A stretch of DNA of 21,196 bases from Cyanobacteria bacterium P01_D01_bin.156 (GCA_039024555.1 JBCCQQ010000083.1:1-21196); one strand, 5' to 3'. Shown: positions 1 through 21,000, counted from the first letter of the stretch. Made by a program: the numbers.

Positions 1-3000
1 CGAATATGTGTCCCTTTACAGAAACGCTATGCAAGGACTGGCTGAAAATCCTTGCCTCTAGGAAAGGGACTACTGACCCTGTCTGGGCGATGGGATAACC
101 CCTGAGATTTCTATTCAGTTTTTCAGCAAACCCTAATTAATGCATTACTCAAGCTAAGCCGTAAGCAGGCCCTGGAAATCGCTAGGGTCGGTGCCGTATC
201 TGGAGTAACTACTGATTTAACAATACTCAAGTTAGACGAAAAAGTTCACTTAATCGATTCCCCAGGCCTTGACGATGTTCGCGCTGAAAATAGTGAGCTA
301 ACAAAGAAGTTTCTGAAGCATATAGATATTGGTATATTCGTAGTTACTGGTTCATCAGACTCATCTCAGAAGAAGGGTTTAGATGATTTAAGGCAACACT
401 GTGATGCTATCTTTGTTGTTTTAAACAAAATAGATGAATGGGATGATTTAGCCCCCTCTGTTCTAGAAGATATTATTCAGCAGTGGAAAACTAATTTAGG
501 AGTCAAGACAATATATCCAACTTGTGTAAAAGGATATGATCCCAAAAGTTGTCTCCCTACGATGAATATTAGAGGTGTTTCAAAACTTCGCAGTGATATC
601 GAAGATTTCCTCGAAAAAAAGGGCAAAGACCTACTATTAGCTAGGCACATGGCTCAAAAGCAATTACACGCGGTCAAAATTATTGCAGTCACATTGACAA
701 CTGTTGCTGGGGAAGCGTTTATTCCTGGAGGTGCCATGTACATTACAGCTACTCAAGGAGCTGCAATAGCGTCTCTAGCATACCTTTACACTGGTGAAAT
801 ATTGTCTACTGAGTCAACCCTTAGCATTTTACCAAAGTTTATTGCGGAGACAGCTGGTTCTAGTCTTTTCCTGTTTGTACAATCTTTTTTGCCTCCAACA
901 GGAGTTGTTGATGTGGCGGCTGCGGGAGTTGCCGTCTTAATTACGCTAGCATTGCTTGCAACAGTTAATTATCTACTTGCCAATGGTGAAGAATTAGATC
1001 AAGAAGAACTTTTGCGTTCGAAGTTCAGAAAATATCATCAACAGGCAAAAGATACTTTGAAGGAGTTGGCGTTAACTGATGTTCAAGATCTCCCTAGCTG
1101 GACGAAAATAGTGAAAAATTTCTTAGAGCTTAAAACCTAAGTACGATGGACGTCTAGCATCTCAATATAACGTATAACACAGTCCTTATGGCTTGAGATC
1201 TAAAACAATCTACCACTGCTGACTCTCACTAATTATCCGGCAGATCTGACGGTGAAGTAATAGCTATGCAGGTAAGGTTCTTGTCAACACTTGACTAGTG
1301 ATGACAAAGTACAACAAGTAAGATAGCTTACTGGTTAGGCTTTTATTTTATGGCAGGAAGACAGATTACTAAAAATATTACCGCAGGTCTAATATTTTTT
1401 ATGCTTATGGCTGCAACCTCACCTTGGTGATGATCCTTATGATTCAGAACCATTACTACCTCCTACTATTCAGAAGCAAGAGTTAGTTACAAAAAGTGAG
1501 AGCAAGCCTTAAAAATTCGGAGCTTCCGAGAAACAGATTATATAATTAGAAACCTAGTCTTGTGGCTTGCTCAACGTAGAGATACAGGGAAATTATATCT
1601 ACGCAATGCTCAGGATCTAAATCGACATTACCAGGGCTTAAAAAGCCTAACAAACTTTGGATTAAAATAACAAGACAAGCTTGGATTCAGTCTTCAGAAA
1701 CACCTTTGCATTCAGTGAAAGGGAAAATAAGGAGAACAAGATTCTGAAATCTATAAAAAGCTTACTGAAACACTACAGTAGGAAAAGTCTTCGGAAACCT
1801 TCTATCATCTGAGAGATAGAGACGGTCATTTGCTAATTAATTTAACTACCAAAGACGAGAATAACAACCTGTATTTTTTTGATTCAATATATTTTTCAGG
1901 GAGATTTAAATTCATTTGTTAATAGGTCGTGAGTTATAGAAGTTCAGAGTGCTTTTAGGCTCATAATATTTTAGATAGATATTAGAGTTTTCAAGACATA
2001 TCAAAAATATAAGGTCTCAATAGATTTTGGCAATTCAATTATAAATAGTGAGACAACATTATAAGTAACACTTAATCATAGAGATCCTAAATTTATAGAA
2101 CAATCACATTCAGTGTGCTGTGGTTTTTCTGCGATCCAACAAAGGCTGCTAGAATCAGCTAAATTGAATTGTTAGCAAGTTACTTTGGATATTAACAGAA
2201 CACTACATGAATTTAGGAAAACAGATATCTCCATATGCGCTACTACTGCTACTTCTAAGTGGATGTACACTCCCGCCTGTTGAAAATCTACCGGATTCAC
2301 CTGCTAACACAGACTCTATAGCTGAAATTTCAGTTACAGATGCCAAATCTGTGGTCGAAATCAAATTTGTCGAGAGTGCACCGAAAGATATTTTCGTCAT
2401 CACCAATATGGGCTCATGCACGCTGGAAGAGCTGACGATTGACCTAGATCTATCACCAAGTGTTGGAAAGCTAATATTTGACACCACAGCAACTGGGGCA
2501 GGTGTTGATGTTTTTCAACCATTTGAAGTTGAAGCAGGTGACATCATGCCGCTGGCTGCAGACGGGGTTAATGACGGCGACACCCAACTCGCATTGCTCA
2601 TCACGTCTTTAGACCCAGGCGACAGGGCAAGTTTCACCATCGATGTAGACGATACATTACCCAGAAGTGACCTCGGACAAATTCGCGTCGCAGATTCAGA
2701 AATCAGCGGCGCAGTTGTCAGCATTACCGCTGGAGGTACTGAAACAATATTGGCAACGTTTGACAATGGGAGTGTGGCACAGGCAAACCTGCCCTCATGT
2801 TTAGCGACTCAGTGATTAATCTAGCACCTCAATTGAATCGCCTGCTTTGACAACACCTTCAACCAAAACAGCTCCATATACACCGGCAAAGCCTGAATGA
2901 GCCTTGTTAACATGTTTAACAATCTCAGGATTAGCCTCGGACGTATCTGGATCTAAGGTAATCATTTTGCAACGAGGATCTCGTTCCAGAACATTGATCT

Positions 3001-18000: not shown

Positions 18001-21000
18001 TCTCTCAGCCATGATGTCTCCAAAGTTAGGGCATATGGCCGCTCTCCTCGAAGGTTGGAACGGCGCGCGCTTACTCGCCGATGGCATTTGGCAAAAGCCC
18101 GGTGGTGCTAAGGAAACCACCCTGCACCAGGACTCCATGTACATTAACTACCATACGCCCCCCGGTGTGATCACCTGTTGGGTTGCCCTCAGTCATGCTG
18201 TTGCCGGAGCCAGCACCATTGAATATGCACGGGGTTCCCATCGTTGGCAGCTATCTAAGGCCGTACCAGAATTTCACAACCAGAACAAAAGCTATCGTTC
18301 AGAAATGGAGCAGGCTGCTAAGGCCGCTGGTGTGGATAACCCTGAGGTTGTTCAACTAGATATTGCTCCAGGTAGCGGTGTTTTTCACCATGGCAATACC
18401 TGGCACGGGTCCGGCACAAACACCATGGATGTGGTGCGCCGCAGTATGGTGCTTGCCTATGTACCTGCAGATGCGGAATTTAAGCGTTTTGGTTCCTACG
18501 TTCCCGGTGGGTATATTGCGGGCAAGTATCGTCTCCACGGTGAGAACACCATGGATGAGAGTTTCTTTCCCATTGTGTGGAGAGAAGATGGTTATCGCAC
18601 ACCTTTTTTGGATAATTAGCTATGCAAGTCTCTTCTCTTCAATTGACTCAGGCCCCTGCCTTGGAGATGACCCAAACCCAGATAGAGCTGTTTCACCAAC
18701 AGGGCTATTTGATAGTCGATAATCTTTTAGATTTAGACCAGGTTACTCAAATTGTTGACCGGTTTGAGCCATTATTTAATACTCAGTTTGAGACTGGCAT
18801 TTATCCCGATGAATGGTACGGTCGTCCGGGGCTCAGTCAGCCCAATGCTACACAGCAGATGACGGGTTTATGGAGATGCGATCGCACCCTAGCCAGCTTT
18901 ACCCTATCGTCTAAAATCGCTGAAATTAGCGGCACTCTGATGGGTTGGAGCTCAGCCCGCTACGGTCTGGACACCTGTTGGATAAAGCCGCCCAATGCGC
19001 CTGGTGTGTATTTTCATCGCAACAATACCTACACCTCTTGCATTGCGCCGCCCGCCACGGTGACCTGTTGGATTGCATTAAGCAATGTAGCGCTTAAAAC
19101 CGGGTCGTTAGAGATTGTGCCGGGCTCGCACTTTTGGAACTGTACTGACCAGATGCGGTTTCTCCATGCTCCCCAAGAAGGTTATCGGGAGCCCCTATGG
19201 CAGGCTGCTAAGGATGCTGGTGTAGTAGACCCACACATTCTTCCCATTGTGTTGCCCCCAGGCAGTGCGGTATTTCTCCATGGAAATCTCTGGCGTGGTT
19301 CTGGTCCTAATCCGAACCAAACGAAAACCCGTCGTAGCCTGGCGATTAGTACTTTGGCGGGCCATGCGCGGTTCCAGCTACCGGGTGTGGGCAAGGGTTA
19401 TATTTTTGAACGCTATCGTCGGCAGGGGAGCTTGGTGATGGAGGAAAGTTACTATCCGATTTTGTGGTCGCAAGATGGCTACCGTACTCCATTTTTGGCA
19501 GACTACTGTGAGGATGCATTGGCATAGAAATCATGGAATCCAAAACGCTTCGCTTAGCAAGCTTTGATGTTGGCACTGACGATCTACGCTGGTGGGCTCC
19601 TCAGATTTTAGAGCGCTATCCGGATGGCTTTTATGAAATGCATCAGCAGTTGTTTACTGATGTGTGCACAAAGAGCCTGCCGGAAGATTTTGGGGGAGTA
19701 GAGCTAACGGGTGTGGAGCTGATTAGGTTTGAGCCTCGGAAATTTCATTACCCGACTGAAGAGGAGTTGGCTAATCTGGACGGGATTGTTATTTCCGGTT
19801 CTGCCAATGGTGCTTATGATCAGGATGAGTGGGTCGTGCGTTTACGTAAAGAGATTCAAACATATCACGAGAAAAAAGTACGTCTATCGGGGTTTTCTTT
19901 TGCGCCTCAGATTGTTGCCCAGGCTTTAGGTGGCAAGGTGGAGAAGAATCCGATGGGTACTGAGTTATCTGTTGCTACTATTCAGCTAACGCCAGAGGCT
20001 CAGCATTATTTTGGGACAGAGCGGACATCGTATAATATTCATGTTCATCATAATGATGGTGTTACTCAGTTACCACCCAATGCTGTCTCTCTGGGCACTA
20101 GCGGTGTTACTGAGCATTTAGGTTGGATACTGAGTAGTCATATTTTGGTGTTTTCAGGCCATCCTGAATATTCTCGTGATCCTTGGGTTTTGGAACAAAT
20201 GATGCTCGTTGAAAGAAAAGAGCATTTAGTGCCTGCCCAGCTGATTGACTTTGGGTTACGAGAACTATGGAACCCTACAGACTACATCTGGCAAACTCAA
20301 CAACAACTACGCTTTTTTCTAGGGAAGTTTCAGTTATTCTAAAGCTATACATGCTTATTTATCGAAATAAAATCCGATCTTTGCCCTACAAGAAGATGGA
20401 ATTTACGAGAAAGATTTTGAACAAGAAATACCTTATATTTCGACAGTCTAATACTAAGTCACTAACCTTTTAACAAGCATAGACTGTTGCAAGCATTTAC
20501 AAAGCTTTATATTCACAGATACGTCTCACAAGAAGCTATGTAGGAAGTCGCTTTTATATTGATTGAAATAACTATCCTTCTTATATATATTTCCAGGCTT
20601 ATCATCAGAATTCAAACACCTTAGCAGTCGACCTGTTAGTCGCTGAAAATTATAAACATTATAGCTCTCTATACCGATCAAGTTATCGACACAAATACCA
20701 CCAATCAATACTTTTTTTTTCTGAGTCACATTGCCAGCAACTCAGAAATAAGACACATAGAATTAAATAAAACTGCGAATCTCAGAGTCAACACAAAACT
20801 TAACAAACCTTGAATAGGTTACAAGAATTACTGTGAATCATACGTGCTTACTTCTTTGAGCGAAGGTTATTTCTGAGCAAGCTATACTAGCTTATAGCCA
20901 AGAAAGTGCAGATAAATATTAAAGGCTTTCTAAATAGGATTCTAATGGTTCAGCATTCAGTACTTCGAAAAATCCAATATGCTCTACAAAATAAGCTTTC

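What a model noticed while it worked through the whole genome (the two positions that open the first line are those of the whole stretch)
2816..20342. Methylated-amine utilisation island with a TMAO demethylase (Tdm) orthologue in a cyanobacterium
A 17-kb island unites a close orthologue of the trimethylamine-N-oxide demethylase/aldolase Tdm of marine Roseobacters with two glutamine-synthetase-like genes, three PhyH-type 2-oxoglutarate dioxygenases, a gamma-glutamyl-peptidase-like amidotransferase, a copper amine oxidase, an ammonium transporter, a solute-binding protein, DUF6885 and a MOSC protein. I read it as a pathway by which this cyanobacterium strips nitrogen from TMAO and lower methylamines (Tdm, then gamma-glutamylation, oxidative demethylation by the PhyH enzymes in place of the MgsABC/MgdABCD route, and hydrolysis), feeding ammonium to the cell. 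Methylated amines are regarded as nitrogen sources of heterotrophic bacteria th [...]
Evidence so far: g05020 (C83:10769-12709, 646 aa; Pfam DUF1989+GCV_T+GCV_T_C) = 47.1% identity over 613 aa, E 1e-200, to Tdm of Ruegeria pomeroyi (Swiss-Prot). Neighbours: g05015 and g05025 Gln-synt_C (33% to archaeal GlnA), g05017/g05026/g05027 PhyH, g05028 GATase (34.5% to plant gamma-glutamyl peptidase), g05019 Cu amine oxidase (52%), g05022 Amt, g05016 SBP_bac_3, g05024 DUF6885, g05014 MOSC, g05018 acyl-CoA-dehydrogenase-like. DUF6885 lies next to a Gln-synt_C gene in 593 of 793 genomes with both (0.75) and is borne by 55 of 3329 genomes of the phylum, 6 of 21 of the genus; Cu_amine_oxid by 470 of 3329. 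Tdm-like matches (65-82% identity, ORFs 582-732 aa for 17 of them, one 305-aa piece at a contig end, o [...]
(Added by a program. Inside this text positions count along the whole contig: contig position 1 is position 1 of the stretch shown here. "Call 12" and the like, gene names such as g00115 and contig names such as C1 are that model's own, and its searches are not shown. The text may have been shortened before it was handed on; [...] marks where a part breaks off. The agent that wrote the report below was given it as the finding of a first reader that could run no searches.)

Follow-up and report, generated by a model that had tools for sequence, protein, structure and literature searches.

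The report
Cyanobacterial methylated-amine nitrogen pathway variant
A filamentous cyanobacterium carries a nitrogen-regulated gene cluster that probably extracts nitrogen from trimethylamine, its oxide and dimethylamine, apparently using undescribed enzymes in place of two of the known bacterial steps.

Summary
All listed genes are real and intact. The Tdm-like protein keeps the zinc and substrate residues of solved Tdm but lacks the ~150-aa N-terminal domain and misses the NCBIfam cut-off. It occurs in 72 of 152 genomes of the order; some relatives sit beside true tmm. The cluster is three modules, not one pathway. Upper module: Tdm-like, a small GcvT-fold partner, and an ACAD-fold flavoprotein lacking its catalytic Glu. 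That flavoprotein alternates with Tmm (52 ACAD only, 12 Tmm only, 1 both, 7 neither), so it is probably a TMA N-oxygenase. Lower module: GmaS-like ligase GS1, PhyH1, a signal-less binding protein, copper amine oxidase and Amt. It persists when the upper module is deleted, has conserved NtcA boxes, and is the likely dimethylamine route; Dmm, MgsABC and Mgd were not found in this genome. The tail (DUF6885, GS2, two PhyH, amidotransferase) is accessory. All substrates are inferred; nothing is assayed. The scan noted this cluster and the flavoprotein idea before on other DNA. Verdict: new variant of a known pathway, interest 0.7.

The parts
2816..3601 (-). MOSC-domain protein (accessory; possible N-oxide/N-hydroxy reductase, role recalled from mARC/YcbX)
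   Evidence: Pfam MOSC+MOSC_N; 8 of 60 cyanobacterial loci; a second MOSC family follows ACAD in other loci
3616..5157 (-). GS1: GmaS-like glutamate-amine ligase, likely dimethylamine glutamylation (lower module; true start probably ~10 codons further in)
   Evidence: TIGR03105 296 bits < 469.6; GmaS-type Q-x-D-x-E...E-x-N spacing and Trp flap; 43 of 46 cyanobacterial Tdm genomes; 65-75% relatives head MgsABC-like operons in non-cyanobacteria
5178..5189 (.). Palindromic operator between the NtcA box and the -10-like hexamer of GS1 (likely site of a HutC-type GntR regulator encoded on C32)
   Evidence: same palindrome at C32:38374 between the GntR gene and a desaturase-like gene; upstream of GntR relatives 7 of 11 (0.1 expected), amt 10 of 67 (0.5), ACAD 9 of 104 (1.2)
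5194..5207 (-). NtcA box GTA-N8-TAC of the GS1 promoter
   Evidence: 23 of 29 loci against 2.0 expected; conserved hexamer 22-23 nt downstream; overlaps the upstream stop in 10 of 23
5204..5962 (-). Amino-acid-binding-protein fold without signal peptide, so probably cytoplasmic (lower module)
   Evidence: SBP_bac_3; homologues start at the mature fold, 236 aa; no permease beside it; Gln/Arg-binding relatives; 26 of 60 loci
6060..6959 (+). PhyH1: Fe/2-oxoglutarate dioxygenase, candidate N-demethylase of gamma-glutamyl-(di)methylamide (lower module)
   Evidence: HxD...H intact; 46 of 46 and 69 of 72 Tdm genomes; no close characterised structure (best SnoK E 4e-11)
6976..8409 (+). ACAD-fold flavoprotein without the catalytic Glu; candidate TMA N-oxygenase replacing Tmm (upper module)
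   Evidence: VMGPT for IYEGT and Phe for the LDxxR Arg; alternates with Tmm; flavin reductase beside it in 14 of 38 non-cyanobacterial loci; lost with Tdm
8720..10663 (+). Copper/TPQ amine oxidase, no signal peptide; candidate methylamine oxidase (lower module, dispensable)
   Evidence: NF008559 998 > 651; Asp base, NYE motif and His ligands align with AGAO; 62 of 72 Tdm genomes, also 20 genomes without Tdm
10769..12709 (+). Short Tdm-like TMAO demethylase (likely start 10856), N-terminal DUF1989-like domain missing (upper module)
   Evidence: D85, C146, H159, C162, Y188, C226, D228 match D220, C285, H298, C301, F327, C365, D367 of 9Q59; 825 < 1100 bits
12716..13207 (+). orf163: small GcvT folate-binding-fold protein, probable partner subunit of the short Tdm
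   Evidence: 55 of 60 loci, directly after tdm; model pLDDT 93.7, Z 13.7, rmsd 2.3 A over 156 residues to the GcvT-like part of sarcosine oxidase alpha; complex prediction weak support, 0.59 against best control 0.00
13204..13217 (+). NtcA box of the amt promoter; conserved CATACT 22 nt downstream (13240-13245)
   Evidence: 40 of 43 loci against 3.8 expected; overlaps the upstream stop in only 3 of 41 boxes
13464..14864 (+). Divergent Amt-family channel, candidate methylated-amine or ammonium channel
   Evidence: below TIGR00836 cut-off; twin His kept, WFGWFGFN changed to FVGFYAFL; 41-45% relatives beside full-length tdm
14875..15306 (+). orf143: small membrane protein that follows amt, no family
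   Evidence: 34 of 60 loci; hydrophobic N-terminal segment; no usable Atlas hit
15366..16202 (+). DUF6885 (accessory tail)
   Evidence: Pfam; 6 of 60 loci
16298..17638 (+). GS2: second glutamate-amine ligase, substrate probably a different amine (accessory tail)
   Evidence: 28% to GS1; Asn at the GmaS Asp177 position, Phe in the flap; 5 of 60 loci
17753..18619 (+). PhyH2 (accessory tail)
   Evidence: 47% to PhyH1, HxD...H intact; 7 of 60 loci
18622..19527 (+). PhyH3 with HxN in place of HxD (accessory tail)
   Evidence: 7 of 60 loci
19533..20342 (+). Class I glutamine amidotransferase-like, possible gamma-glutamyl hydrolase (accessory tail)
   Evidence: Pfam GATase, below all NCBIfam cut-offs; 7 of 60 loci

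Best explanation
An NtcA-activated, GntR-gated pathway that takes nitrogen from methylated amines. Step 1 (inferred, ~0.7): the ACAD-fold flavoprotein uses reduced flavin and O2 to oxidise TMA to TMAO, doing the job of Tmm. Step 2 (inferred from conserved active site and tmm linkage, ~0.85): the short Tdm, with orf163 as partner, splits TMAO to dimethylamine and passes the C1 unit to tetrahydrofolate. Step 3 (inferred, ~0.55): GS1 joins dimethylamine to glutamate. Step 4 (inferred, ~0.5): PhyH1 hydroxylates the N-methyl group, releasing formaldehyde and gamma-glutamylmethylamide; a second round would give glutamine directly. The signal-less binding protein may hold these amino-acid-like intermediates. 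Step 5 (~0.55): the copper amine oxidase oxidises free methylamine or another primary amine to ammonia. Amt brings the amines in. The DUF6885-GS2-PhyH2-PhyH3-GATase tail is a separate glutamylation module for another amine. Shown here: genes, residues, co-occurrence, deletion pattern and promoter motifs. Not shown: any substrate, activity or expression.
For: Zn and substrate residues are invariant or conservative in 59 cyanobacterial sequences. Above-cut-off tmm lies directly after short tdm+orf163 in 5 of 60 loci and in two single-contig genomes. Among 72 Tdm genomes: 52 ACAD only, 12 Tmm only, 1 both (Tmm on a 1,395-bp contig), 7 neither. The Tmm state appears at three separate places of the cyanobacterial Tdm tree. 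G048 has gmaS-mgsABC-tmoP-ACAD-flavin reductase-tdm-dmm and no tmm match. ACAD is in 53 of 72 Tdm genomes but 4 of 80 without. Deletion series: GS1-SBP-PhyH1-CuAO-Amt persist with ACAD, tdm and orf163 removed, one leaving a 36-codon ACAD remnant. DmmA is in 0 of 152 (control rang in 3 of 5); the three DmmA genomes lack GS1 and the two non-cyanobacterial genomes without DmmA have it. NtcA boxes 40 of 43 and 23 of 29. orf163-Tdm prediction: weak support, 0.59 against 0.00, runs agree in at least 95% of contacts, partner pLDDT at least 84; only 18 of 157 solved complexes and both passing mismatches of 215 scored in that band.
Against: Deleting residues 1-150 of Paracoccus Tdm aggregates it (PMC13619132), and that domain is called ubiquitous in Tdm homologues (PMC12560246); ours lacks it. 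Position 204 is Leu or Tyr instead of Trp in 20 of 59 cyanobacterial sequences. No flavin reductase lies in any cyanobacterial locus; this genome has only two 22-23% relatives. The ACAD model's closest structures are true acyl-CoA dehydrogenases. Seven Tdm genomes have neither enzyme, L126 has ACAD next to tmm, and 9 of 20 non-cyanobacterial ACAD loci with at least 2.5 kb downstream show no tdm. G480 keeps ACAD while tdm and PhyH1 are in fragments. Most Tmm genomes form one Tdm clade, so the Fisher value (3.8e-8) overstates. GS1 is only ~30% identical to GmaS and PhyH1 has no characterised close relative. No amide hydrolase is in the core.
Confidence: 0.58

Rival explanations
1. Same theme, other lower route: GS1 and PhyH1 handle monomethylamine (or PhyH1 demethylates free dimethylamine), and dimethylamine is partly excreted or processed by genes elsewhere, such as the C32 GmaS-family ligases or the GntR-linked desaturase-like and hydrolase pair.
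For: GS1 keeps the GmaS amine-site residues; GmaS itself prefers MMA, Km 27 uM against 16 mM for DMA (PMC7948447); SAR11 has Tdm without a known DMA step (PMC5520151); the desaturase-like and hydrolase genes share the operator and sit by the cluster in several loci.
Against: The genome already has two above-cut-off GmaS-family ligases and the amine oxidase for MMA; GS1 alternates with Dmm in the five non-cyanobacterial genomes tested.
Confidence: 0.2
2. The ACAD-fold protein is not an N-oxygenase but a flavin TMA or DMA dehydrogenase/demethylase, or an S-oxygenase for dimethylsulfide.
Against: It is lost together with tdm while the lower module stays (3 of 14 PhyH1-positive, Tdm-negative genomes keep it, all 82-87% complete), which a Tdm-independent enzyme would not need. 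It co-occurs with Dmm in G048, L117, L144 and L160. A flavin reductase accompanies it outside cyanobacteria.
Confidence: 0.12
3. The short Tdm clade has shifted to another N-oxide or N-methyl compound, and the cluster serves other amines (polyamines, ethanolamine, alkylamines) by PuuA-like glutamylation.
For: The short Tdms form their own long-branched clade, fail the NCBIfam cut-off and lack the N-domain; copper amine oxidases are broad; GS2 has a non-GmaS amine site.
Against: Tmm and TmoP-like permeases sit beside members of this clade; GS1 scores 210 bits against 650 for gamma-glutamylputrescine synthetase; active-site residues are kept. This reading may well hold for the accessory tail alone.
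Confidence: 0.1

Closest known systems
Aerobic TMA pathway Tmm-Tdm-DmmDABC-GmaS-MgsABC-MgdABCD (Methylocella silvestris, Ruegeria pomeroyi, Paracoccus)
   Same: Tdm-type enzyme with the same Zn site; GmaS-type ligase; amine transport gene; GntR-family control (TmoR represses tmm in R. pomeroyi, PMC13390433 passage).
   Different: No Tmm, Dmm, MgsABC, Mgd or TmoP found in this genome; ACAD-fold flavoprotein, PhyH1, signal-less binding protein, copper amine oxidase and Amt instead; NtcA boxes; host is an oxygenic phototroph.
Tdm, TMAO demethylase (NF053776; PDB 9Q59)
   Same: DUF1989+GcvT fusion; 3-Cys Zn site, D220, D367, H298 kept; F327 is Tyr as in all 20 proteobacterial loci checked.
   Different: N-terminal ~150-aa domain absent; 825 < 1100 bits; a separate GcvT-fold gene follows it.
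Group D two-component flavin monooxygenases with the ACAD fold (DszC, HsaA, C2-HpaH, N-oxygenases DnmZ/KijD3; class assignment recalled)
   Same: ACAD fold, no catalytic Glu, flavin reductase partner in non-cyanobacterial relatives.
   Different: Only distant (DnmZ E 2e-9); no reductase in the cyanobacterial loci; a tertiary alkylamine substrate is not described in the papers I searched.
GmaS (TIGR03105; PDB 7CQL)
   Same: Amine-site residue pattern and Trp flap.
   Different: ~30% identity, below cut-off, with insertions; partner is PhyH1 rather than MgsABC.
Copper methylamine oxidase (Arthrobacter P1 MaoII, Hansenula HPAO; substrates recalled)
   Same: Copper amine oxidase family with catalytic motifs.
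   Different: Closest structure is phenylethylamine oxidase AGAO; substrate not decidable from sequence.

Membership tests
Tdm (NF053776) | DUF1989 fused to GcvT domains | tested here: met
Tdm (NF053776) | 3-Cys Zn site and substrate residues D220, F327, D367 | tested here: met
   C146, C162, C226, D85, Y188, D228; Cys invariant in 116 sequences
Tdm (NF053776) | N-terminal DUF1989-like domain (~150 aa) | tested here: not met
   alignment starts at model position 150; at most 81 residues before position 42 in cyanobacterial frames against 133-290 in most full-length ones
Tdm (NF053776) | curated score cut-off 1100 bits | tested here: not met
   825 bits; other short ones 788-831
Tdm (NF053776) | genomic link to tmm | tested here: met
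   met for clade members L043, L044, L047, L050, L055, L166, L167, L172, L173; not in this window
Tdm (NF053776) | TMAO to DMA and formaldehyde activity | not testable with these tools
   needs an assay
Acyl-CoA dehydrogenase | ACAD fold | tested here: met
   Z ~41, rmsd 2.1-2.6 A over ~370 residues
Acyl-CoA dehydrogenase | catalytic Glu (YEG motif, or the IVD-type site) | tested here: not met
   Gly408 at the YEG Glu in 3 of 3 printed alignments, invariant in 49; Phe267 at the IVD site, whose position is recalled
Group D flavin monooxygenase | cognate flavin reductase | tested here: inconclusive
   14 of 38 non-cyanobacterial loci plus L072 and L177; none in cyanobacterial loci
Group D flavin monooxygenase | oxygen transfer from flavin hydroperoxide | not testable with these tools
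   needs an assay
GmaS (TIGR03105), gene 3616-5157 | Q175, D177, E179, E186, N188 pattern and Trp300 flap | tested here: met
   same spacing in GS1; matched by motif spacing, not by a printed alignment to RhGmaS
GmaS (TIGR03105), gene 3616-5157 | curated cut-off 469.6 bits | tested here: not met
   296 bits; GS2 277 bits
N-methylglutamate pathway | MgsABC and MgdABCD in the genome | tested here: not met
   only partial 24-35% hits to Mgs-like queries; soxA and soxB far below cut-off; genome 99% complete, 149 contigs
Canonical TMA pathway | Tmm and DmmABC | tested here: not met
   Tmm best 62 bits; DmmA none
Copper amine oxidase | NYD/E TPQ motif, Asp base, three His, cut-off | tested here: met
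Fe/2OG dioxygenase | HxD...H triad in PhyH1 and PhyH2 | tested here: met
Fe/2OG dioxygenase | HxD...H triad in PhyH3 | tested here: not met
   HxN
NtcA class II promoter | GTAN8TAC conserved upstream | tested here: met
   definition from PMC3898017 passages
NtcA class II promoter | -10 box TAN3T 22 nt downstream | tested here: inconclusive
   a hexamer is conserved at that distance (CATACT, TTTACT) but strict TAN3T was met in 0 of 64 boxes

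The most novel reading that the evidence does not exclude
Phormidesmidales-type cyanobacteria assimilate TMA, TMAO and DMA nitrogen themselves by a largely undescribed route: an ACAD-fold TMA N-oxygenase fed by photosynthetic reductant, a two-subunit Tdm, and a ligase/dioxygenase pair that glutamylates dimethylamine and demethylates the amide twice to glutamine, spending the nitrogen-starvation signal 2-oxoglutarate. The GS1 family would then also be the missing DMA entry step of marine bacteria that lack Dmm.
Probability: 0.3. Interest if true: 0.87.

Novelty: new variant of a known kind. Interest (0 to 1): 0.7.

Why it matters
Methylated amines are climate-active and are treated as substrates of heterotrophs; for Trichodesmium, TMA use was assigned to associated bacteria because the cyanobacterium lacks the genes beyond tmm (bioRxiv 2021.03.10.434842, passages). 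A pathway in about half of one cyanobacterial order would make phototrophs direct consumers. It also offers two testable enzymes for known gaps: a second kind of TMA oxygenase that tmm-based surveys would miss, and a Dmm-independent DMA step, the 'bottleneck' of PMC5520151. Cultured carriers exist among the named loci (for example Nodosilinea nodulosa PCC 7104, L026), so growth tests are direct.

Tried and rejected
Literature: (trimethylamine, tdm, acyl-CoA dehydrogenase, tmm) gave 0 papers; one search gave 3 papers, none by title on a cyanobacterial pathway; searches listed none either. The library lacks most subscription papers and I read no supplements, so 'not in print' is weak. The Methylocella residues F259, Y305 and W321 are recalled; one search did not find them. 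Sequence search of the orf163 profile against PDB gave nothing; the fold search did. Atlas search of orf143 gave no usable hit. Fusion partners of PhyH1 relatives were uninformative; one GS-fragment+PhyH frame is only 24% like GS2. The ACAD fold search did not separate dehydrogenase from oxygenase. A 400-genome class sample around G048 gave one further ACAD genome; one genome was not scored. The IQ-TREE run did not finish; the tree is FastTree with midpoint root and two long branches, with no AU test. My first labelling of metagenome loci mislabelled antisense frames, so counts come from tblastn. Rejected: recent horizontal island (composition, spread); PhyH2/3, GS2 and GATase as core; NtcA boxes as an artefact of stop codons. 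The single-window NtcA count alone is at chance (3 found, 2.97 expected); only conservation carries the claim.

Full report
OBSERVATION. Two more conserved frames lie inside the cluster: 12716-13207 (orf163) and 14875-15306 (orf143). The genome is 99% complete with 1.8% contamination. Its Tdm-like protein groups with Leptothoe-like cyanobacteria, and the one run holding the DNA is a marine metagenome that may be its source. Composition does not mark the region as foreign. The Tdm-like gene is in 72 of 152 genomes of the order and 3 of 330 other genomes of a phylum sample.

THE TDM-LIKE PROTEIN. It aligns to Paracoccus Tdm from residue 177 on. The Zn ligands and substrate residues named in PMC13619132 (Results read in full) are kept: D85, C146, C162, C226, D228, with Tyr188 for Phe327. 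All 20 proteobacterial sequences checked also have Tyr there. H159 matches the His discussed in PMC12560246 (Results part 1 of 2 read). The ~150-aa N-terminal domain is missing in the whole cyanobacterial clade, and the score is 825 against a cut-off of 1100. It therefore works like Tdm but is not filed as a member. The best functional evidence is context: in 5 of 60 cyanobacterial loci an above-cut-off tmm follows tdm+orf163, and two single-contig genomes carry PhyH1, SBP, short tdm, orf163, tmm and GS1 together (L172, L173). orf163 follows tdm in 55 of 60 loci, has the GcvT folate-binding fold (Z 13.7, rmsd 2.3 A, 156 residues), and got weak support as a binding partner (0.59 against 0.00). 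I infer a small subunit that makes up for the lost domain; this is not shown.

THREE MODULES. In 60 cyanobacterial loci of varying length: amt 40, CuAO 35, orf143 34, ACAD 28, PhyH1 27, GS1 26, SBP 26, but MOSC 8, PhyH2/3 and GATase 7, DUF6885 6, GS2 5. Genome-wide in 46 of these genomes (chosen by me from the 60, favouring long loci): PhyH1 46, GS1 43. In the order, 14 genomes have PhyH1 without tdm; 12 of them keep CuAO and 3 keep ACAD. Loci from such genomes read GS1-SBP-PhyH1-CuAO-Amt-orf143 with ACAD, tdm and orf163 cut out, one with a 36-codon ACAD remnant and one with orf163 remnants (L179-L182, L188). So ACAD, tdm and orf163 form an upper module that is lost as a unit, the lower module stands alone, and the tail is accessory.

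THE ACAD-FOLD PROTEIN. It has Gly where acyl-CoA dehydrogenases have the YEG Glu and Phe at the LDxxR Arg. Among 72 Tdm genomes, 52 have ACAD only, 12 Tmm only, 1 both and 7 neither. The 46-genome set gave 33, 10, 1 and 2 but overlaps the first and is not independent. Kin inflate these counts: on the tree the Tmm state is one 14-row clade, one row nested among ACAD genomes (L027, whose cluster lacks ACAD at its usual place) and L172. Outside cyanobacteria 70-76% identical relatives sit beside above-cut-off Tdm, with a flavin reductase in 14 of 38 loci. G048 has gmaS, mgsABC, tmoP, ACAD, flavin reductase, tdm and dmm genes in one cluster and no tmm match. G685, G191, G067 and G233 each have Tdm and exactly one of the two. 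Against: tdm was not seen in 9 of 20 non-cyanobacterial loci with enough flank, L126 has both enzymes side by side, G480 keeps ACAD beside tdm fragments, no reductase is in cyanobacterial loci, and the fold search ranks true dehydrogenases first. Loss together with tdm and co-occurrence with Dmm favour an enzyme whose product needs Tdm, that is TMAO.

LOWER MODULE. DmmA was not found in 152 genomes (control 3 of 5), nor MgsABC or SoxAB in this genome. GS1 has the amine-site pattern given for GmaS in PMC7948447 (passages) at ~30% identity. Its 65-75% relatives head MgsABC-like operons in bacteria with Tdm. Of five non-cyanobacterial genomes tested, the three with DmmA lack GS1 and the two without have it; this is a small sample. 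In cyanobacteria the Mgs-like genes are absent from the loci and PhyH1 plus a signal-less amino-acid-binding fold are present. The simplest chemistry is glutamylation of DMA, then Fe/2OG N-demethylation of the amide. Copper amine oxidases act on primary amines (established knowledge), so CuAO cannot be the DMA step; it is missing from 10 of 72 Tdm genomes. Formaldehyde disposal genes frmA and fghA are on C1, but they are common genes. Two above-cut-off GmaS-family ligases on C32 could take MMA.

REGULATION. GTA-N8-TAC precedes amt in 40 of 43 loci (3.8 expected from shuffles), GS1 in 23 of 29 (2.0) and PhyH1 in 11 of 30 (2.6), but ACAD in 0 of 25 and tdm in 1 of 60. A conserved hexamer lies 22-23 nt downstream, close to but not matching TAN3T (consensus from PMC3898017 passages). 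A palindrome between box and hexamer of GS1 recurs before a HutC-type GntR gene and its desaturase-like neighbour on C32, and before amt, ACAD and one tmm in other loci. The pattern was derived from GS1 promoters, so that count (31 of 50) is circular; loci include duplicates and kin; a loose form has 21 sites in the genome. This supports nitrogen scavenging rather than carbon or energy use.

KNOWN AND NEW. The pathway kind is known from proteobacteria. My searches found no paper on a cyanobacterial version or on an ACAD-fold enzyme beside tdm, in a library that lacks most subscription papers. PMC5520151, PMC13390433 and bioRxiv 2021.03.10.434842 were seen as passages only. I noted the ACAD/Tmm idea before seeing the same idea in earlier scan notes. 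Those notes also cover this cluster in other cyanobacteria. The reading of GS1 as a DMA-related ligase came as a lead from notes. These notes are not independent evidence.

VERDICT. A real, conserved, nitrogen-regulated methylated-amine cluster; a new variant of a known pathway with two candidate new enzymatic steps. Theme ~0.88, detailed scheme ~0.58, interest 0.7.

Noticed in passing
G000 C32:14073-29193 (L081): Second amine cluster: two above-cut-off GmaS-family ligases, amidotransferase, AgcS carrier, Fe-alcohol and aldehyde dehydrogenases, GntR, monomeric sarcosine-oxidase-like, GbcA-like Rieske oxygenase and dimethylglycine-dehydrogenase-like genes; looks like betaine and amine demethylation, with NtcA boxes at 18415 and 25137.
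   Followed up: partly
G000 C32:36279-39189 (L082): MetX-like hydrolase, desaturase-like di-iron protein and HutC-type GntR share the GS1 operator and sit beside the amine cluster in several relatives; probably part of the same regulon, function unknown.
   Followed up: partly
window 8489-8575: Small inverted-repeat element between ACAD and CuAO with further copies on other contigs (9 BLAST rows).
   Followed up: partly
window 2207-2815: Lipoprotein-like gene with no Pfam family, next to the cluster in 2 of 60 loci and in L180.
   Followed up: no
window 562-1140 and 20906-21196: A frame with no family at the left end and a leucine-rich-repeat gene running off the right end; flanks are AT-rich (33-38% GC).
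   Followed up: no
L118:1756-4437: A 727-aa divergent Tdm-like protein with an orf163 relative, ACAD, permease, MOSC and a molybdopterin oxidoreductase; sister to the short clade and a possible clue to its origin.
   Followed up: partly
L065:5800-11824 (G047): A marine gammaproteobacterium has a PhyH1 relative (43-45%) and the same Amt type beside full-length tdm, with neither Tmm, ACAD nor DmmA found.
   Followed up: partly
L137, L143, L147, L148, L161: A conserved 187-aa protein of no Pfam family lies next to ACAD relatives in five non-cyanobacterial loci.
   Followed up: no
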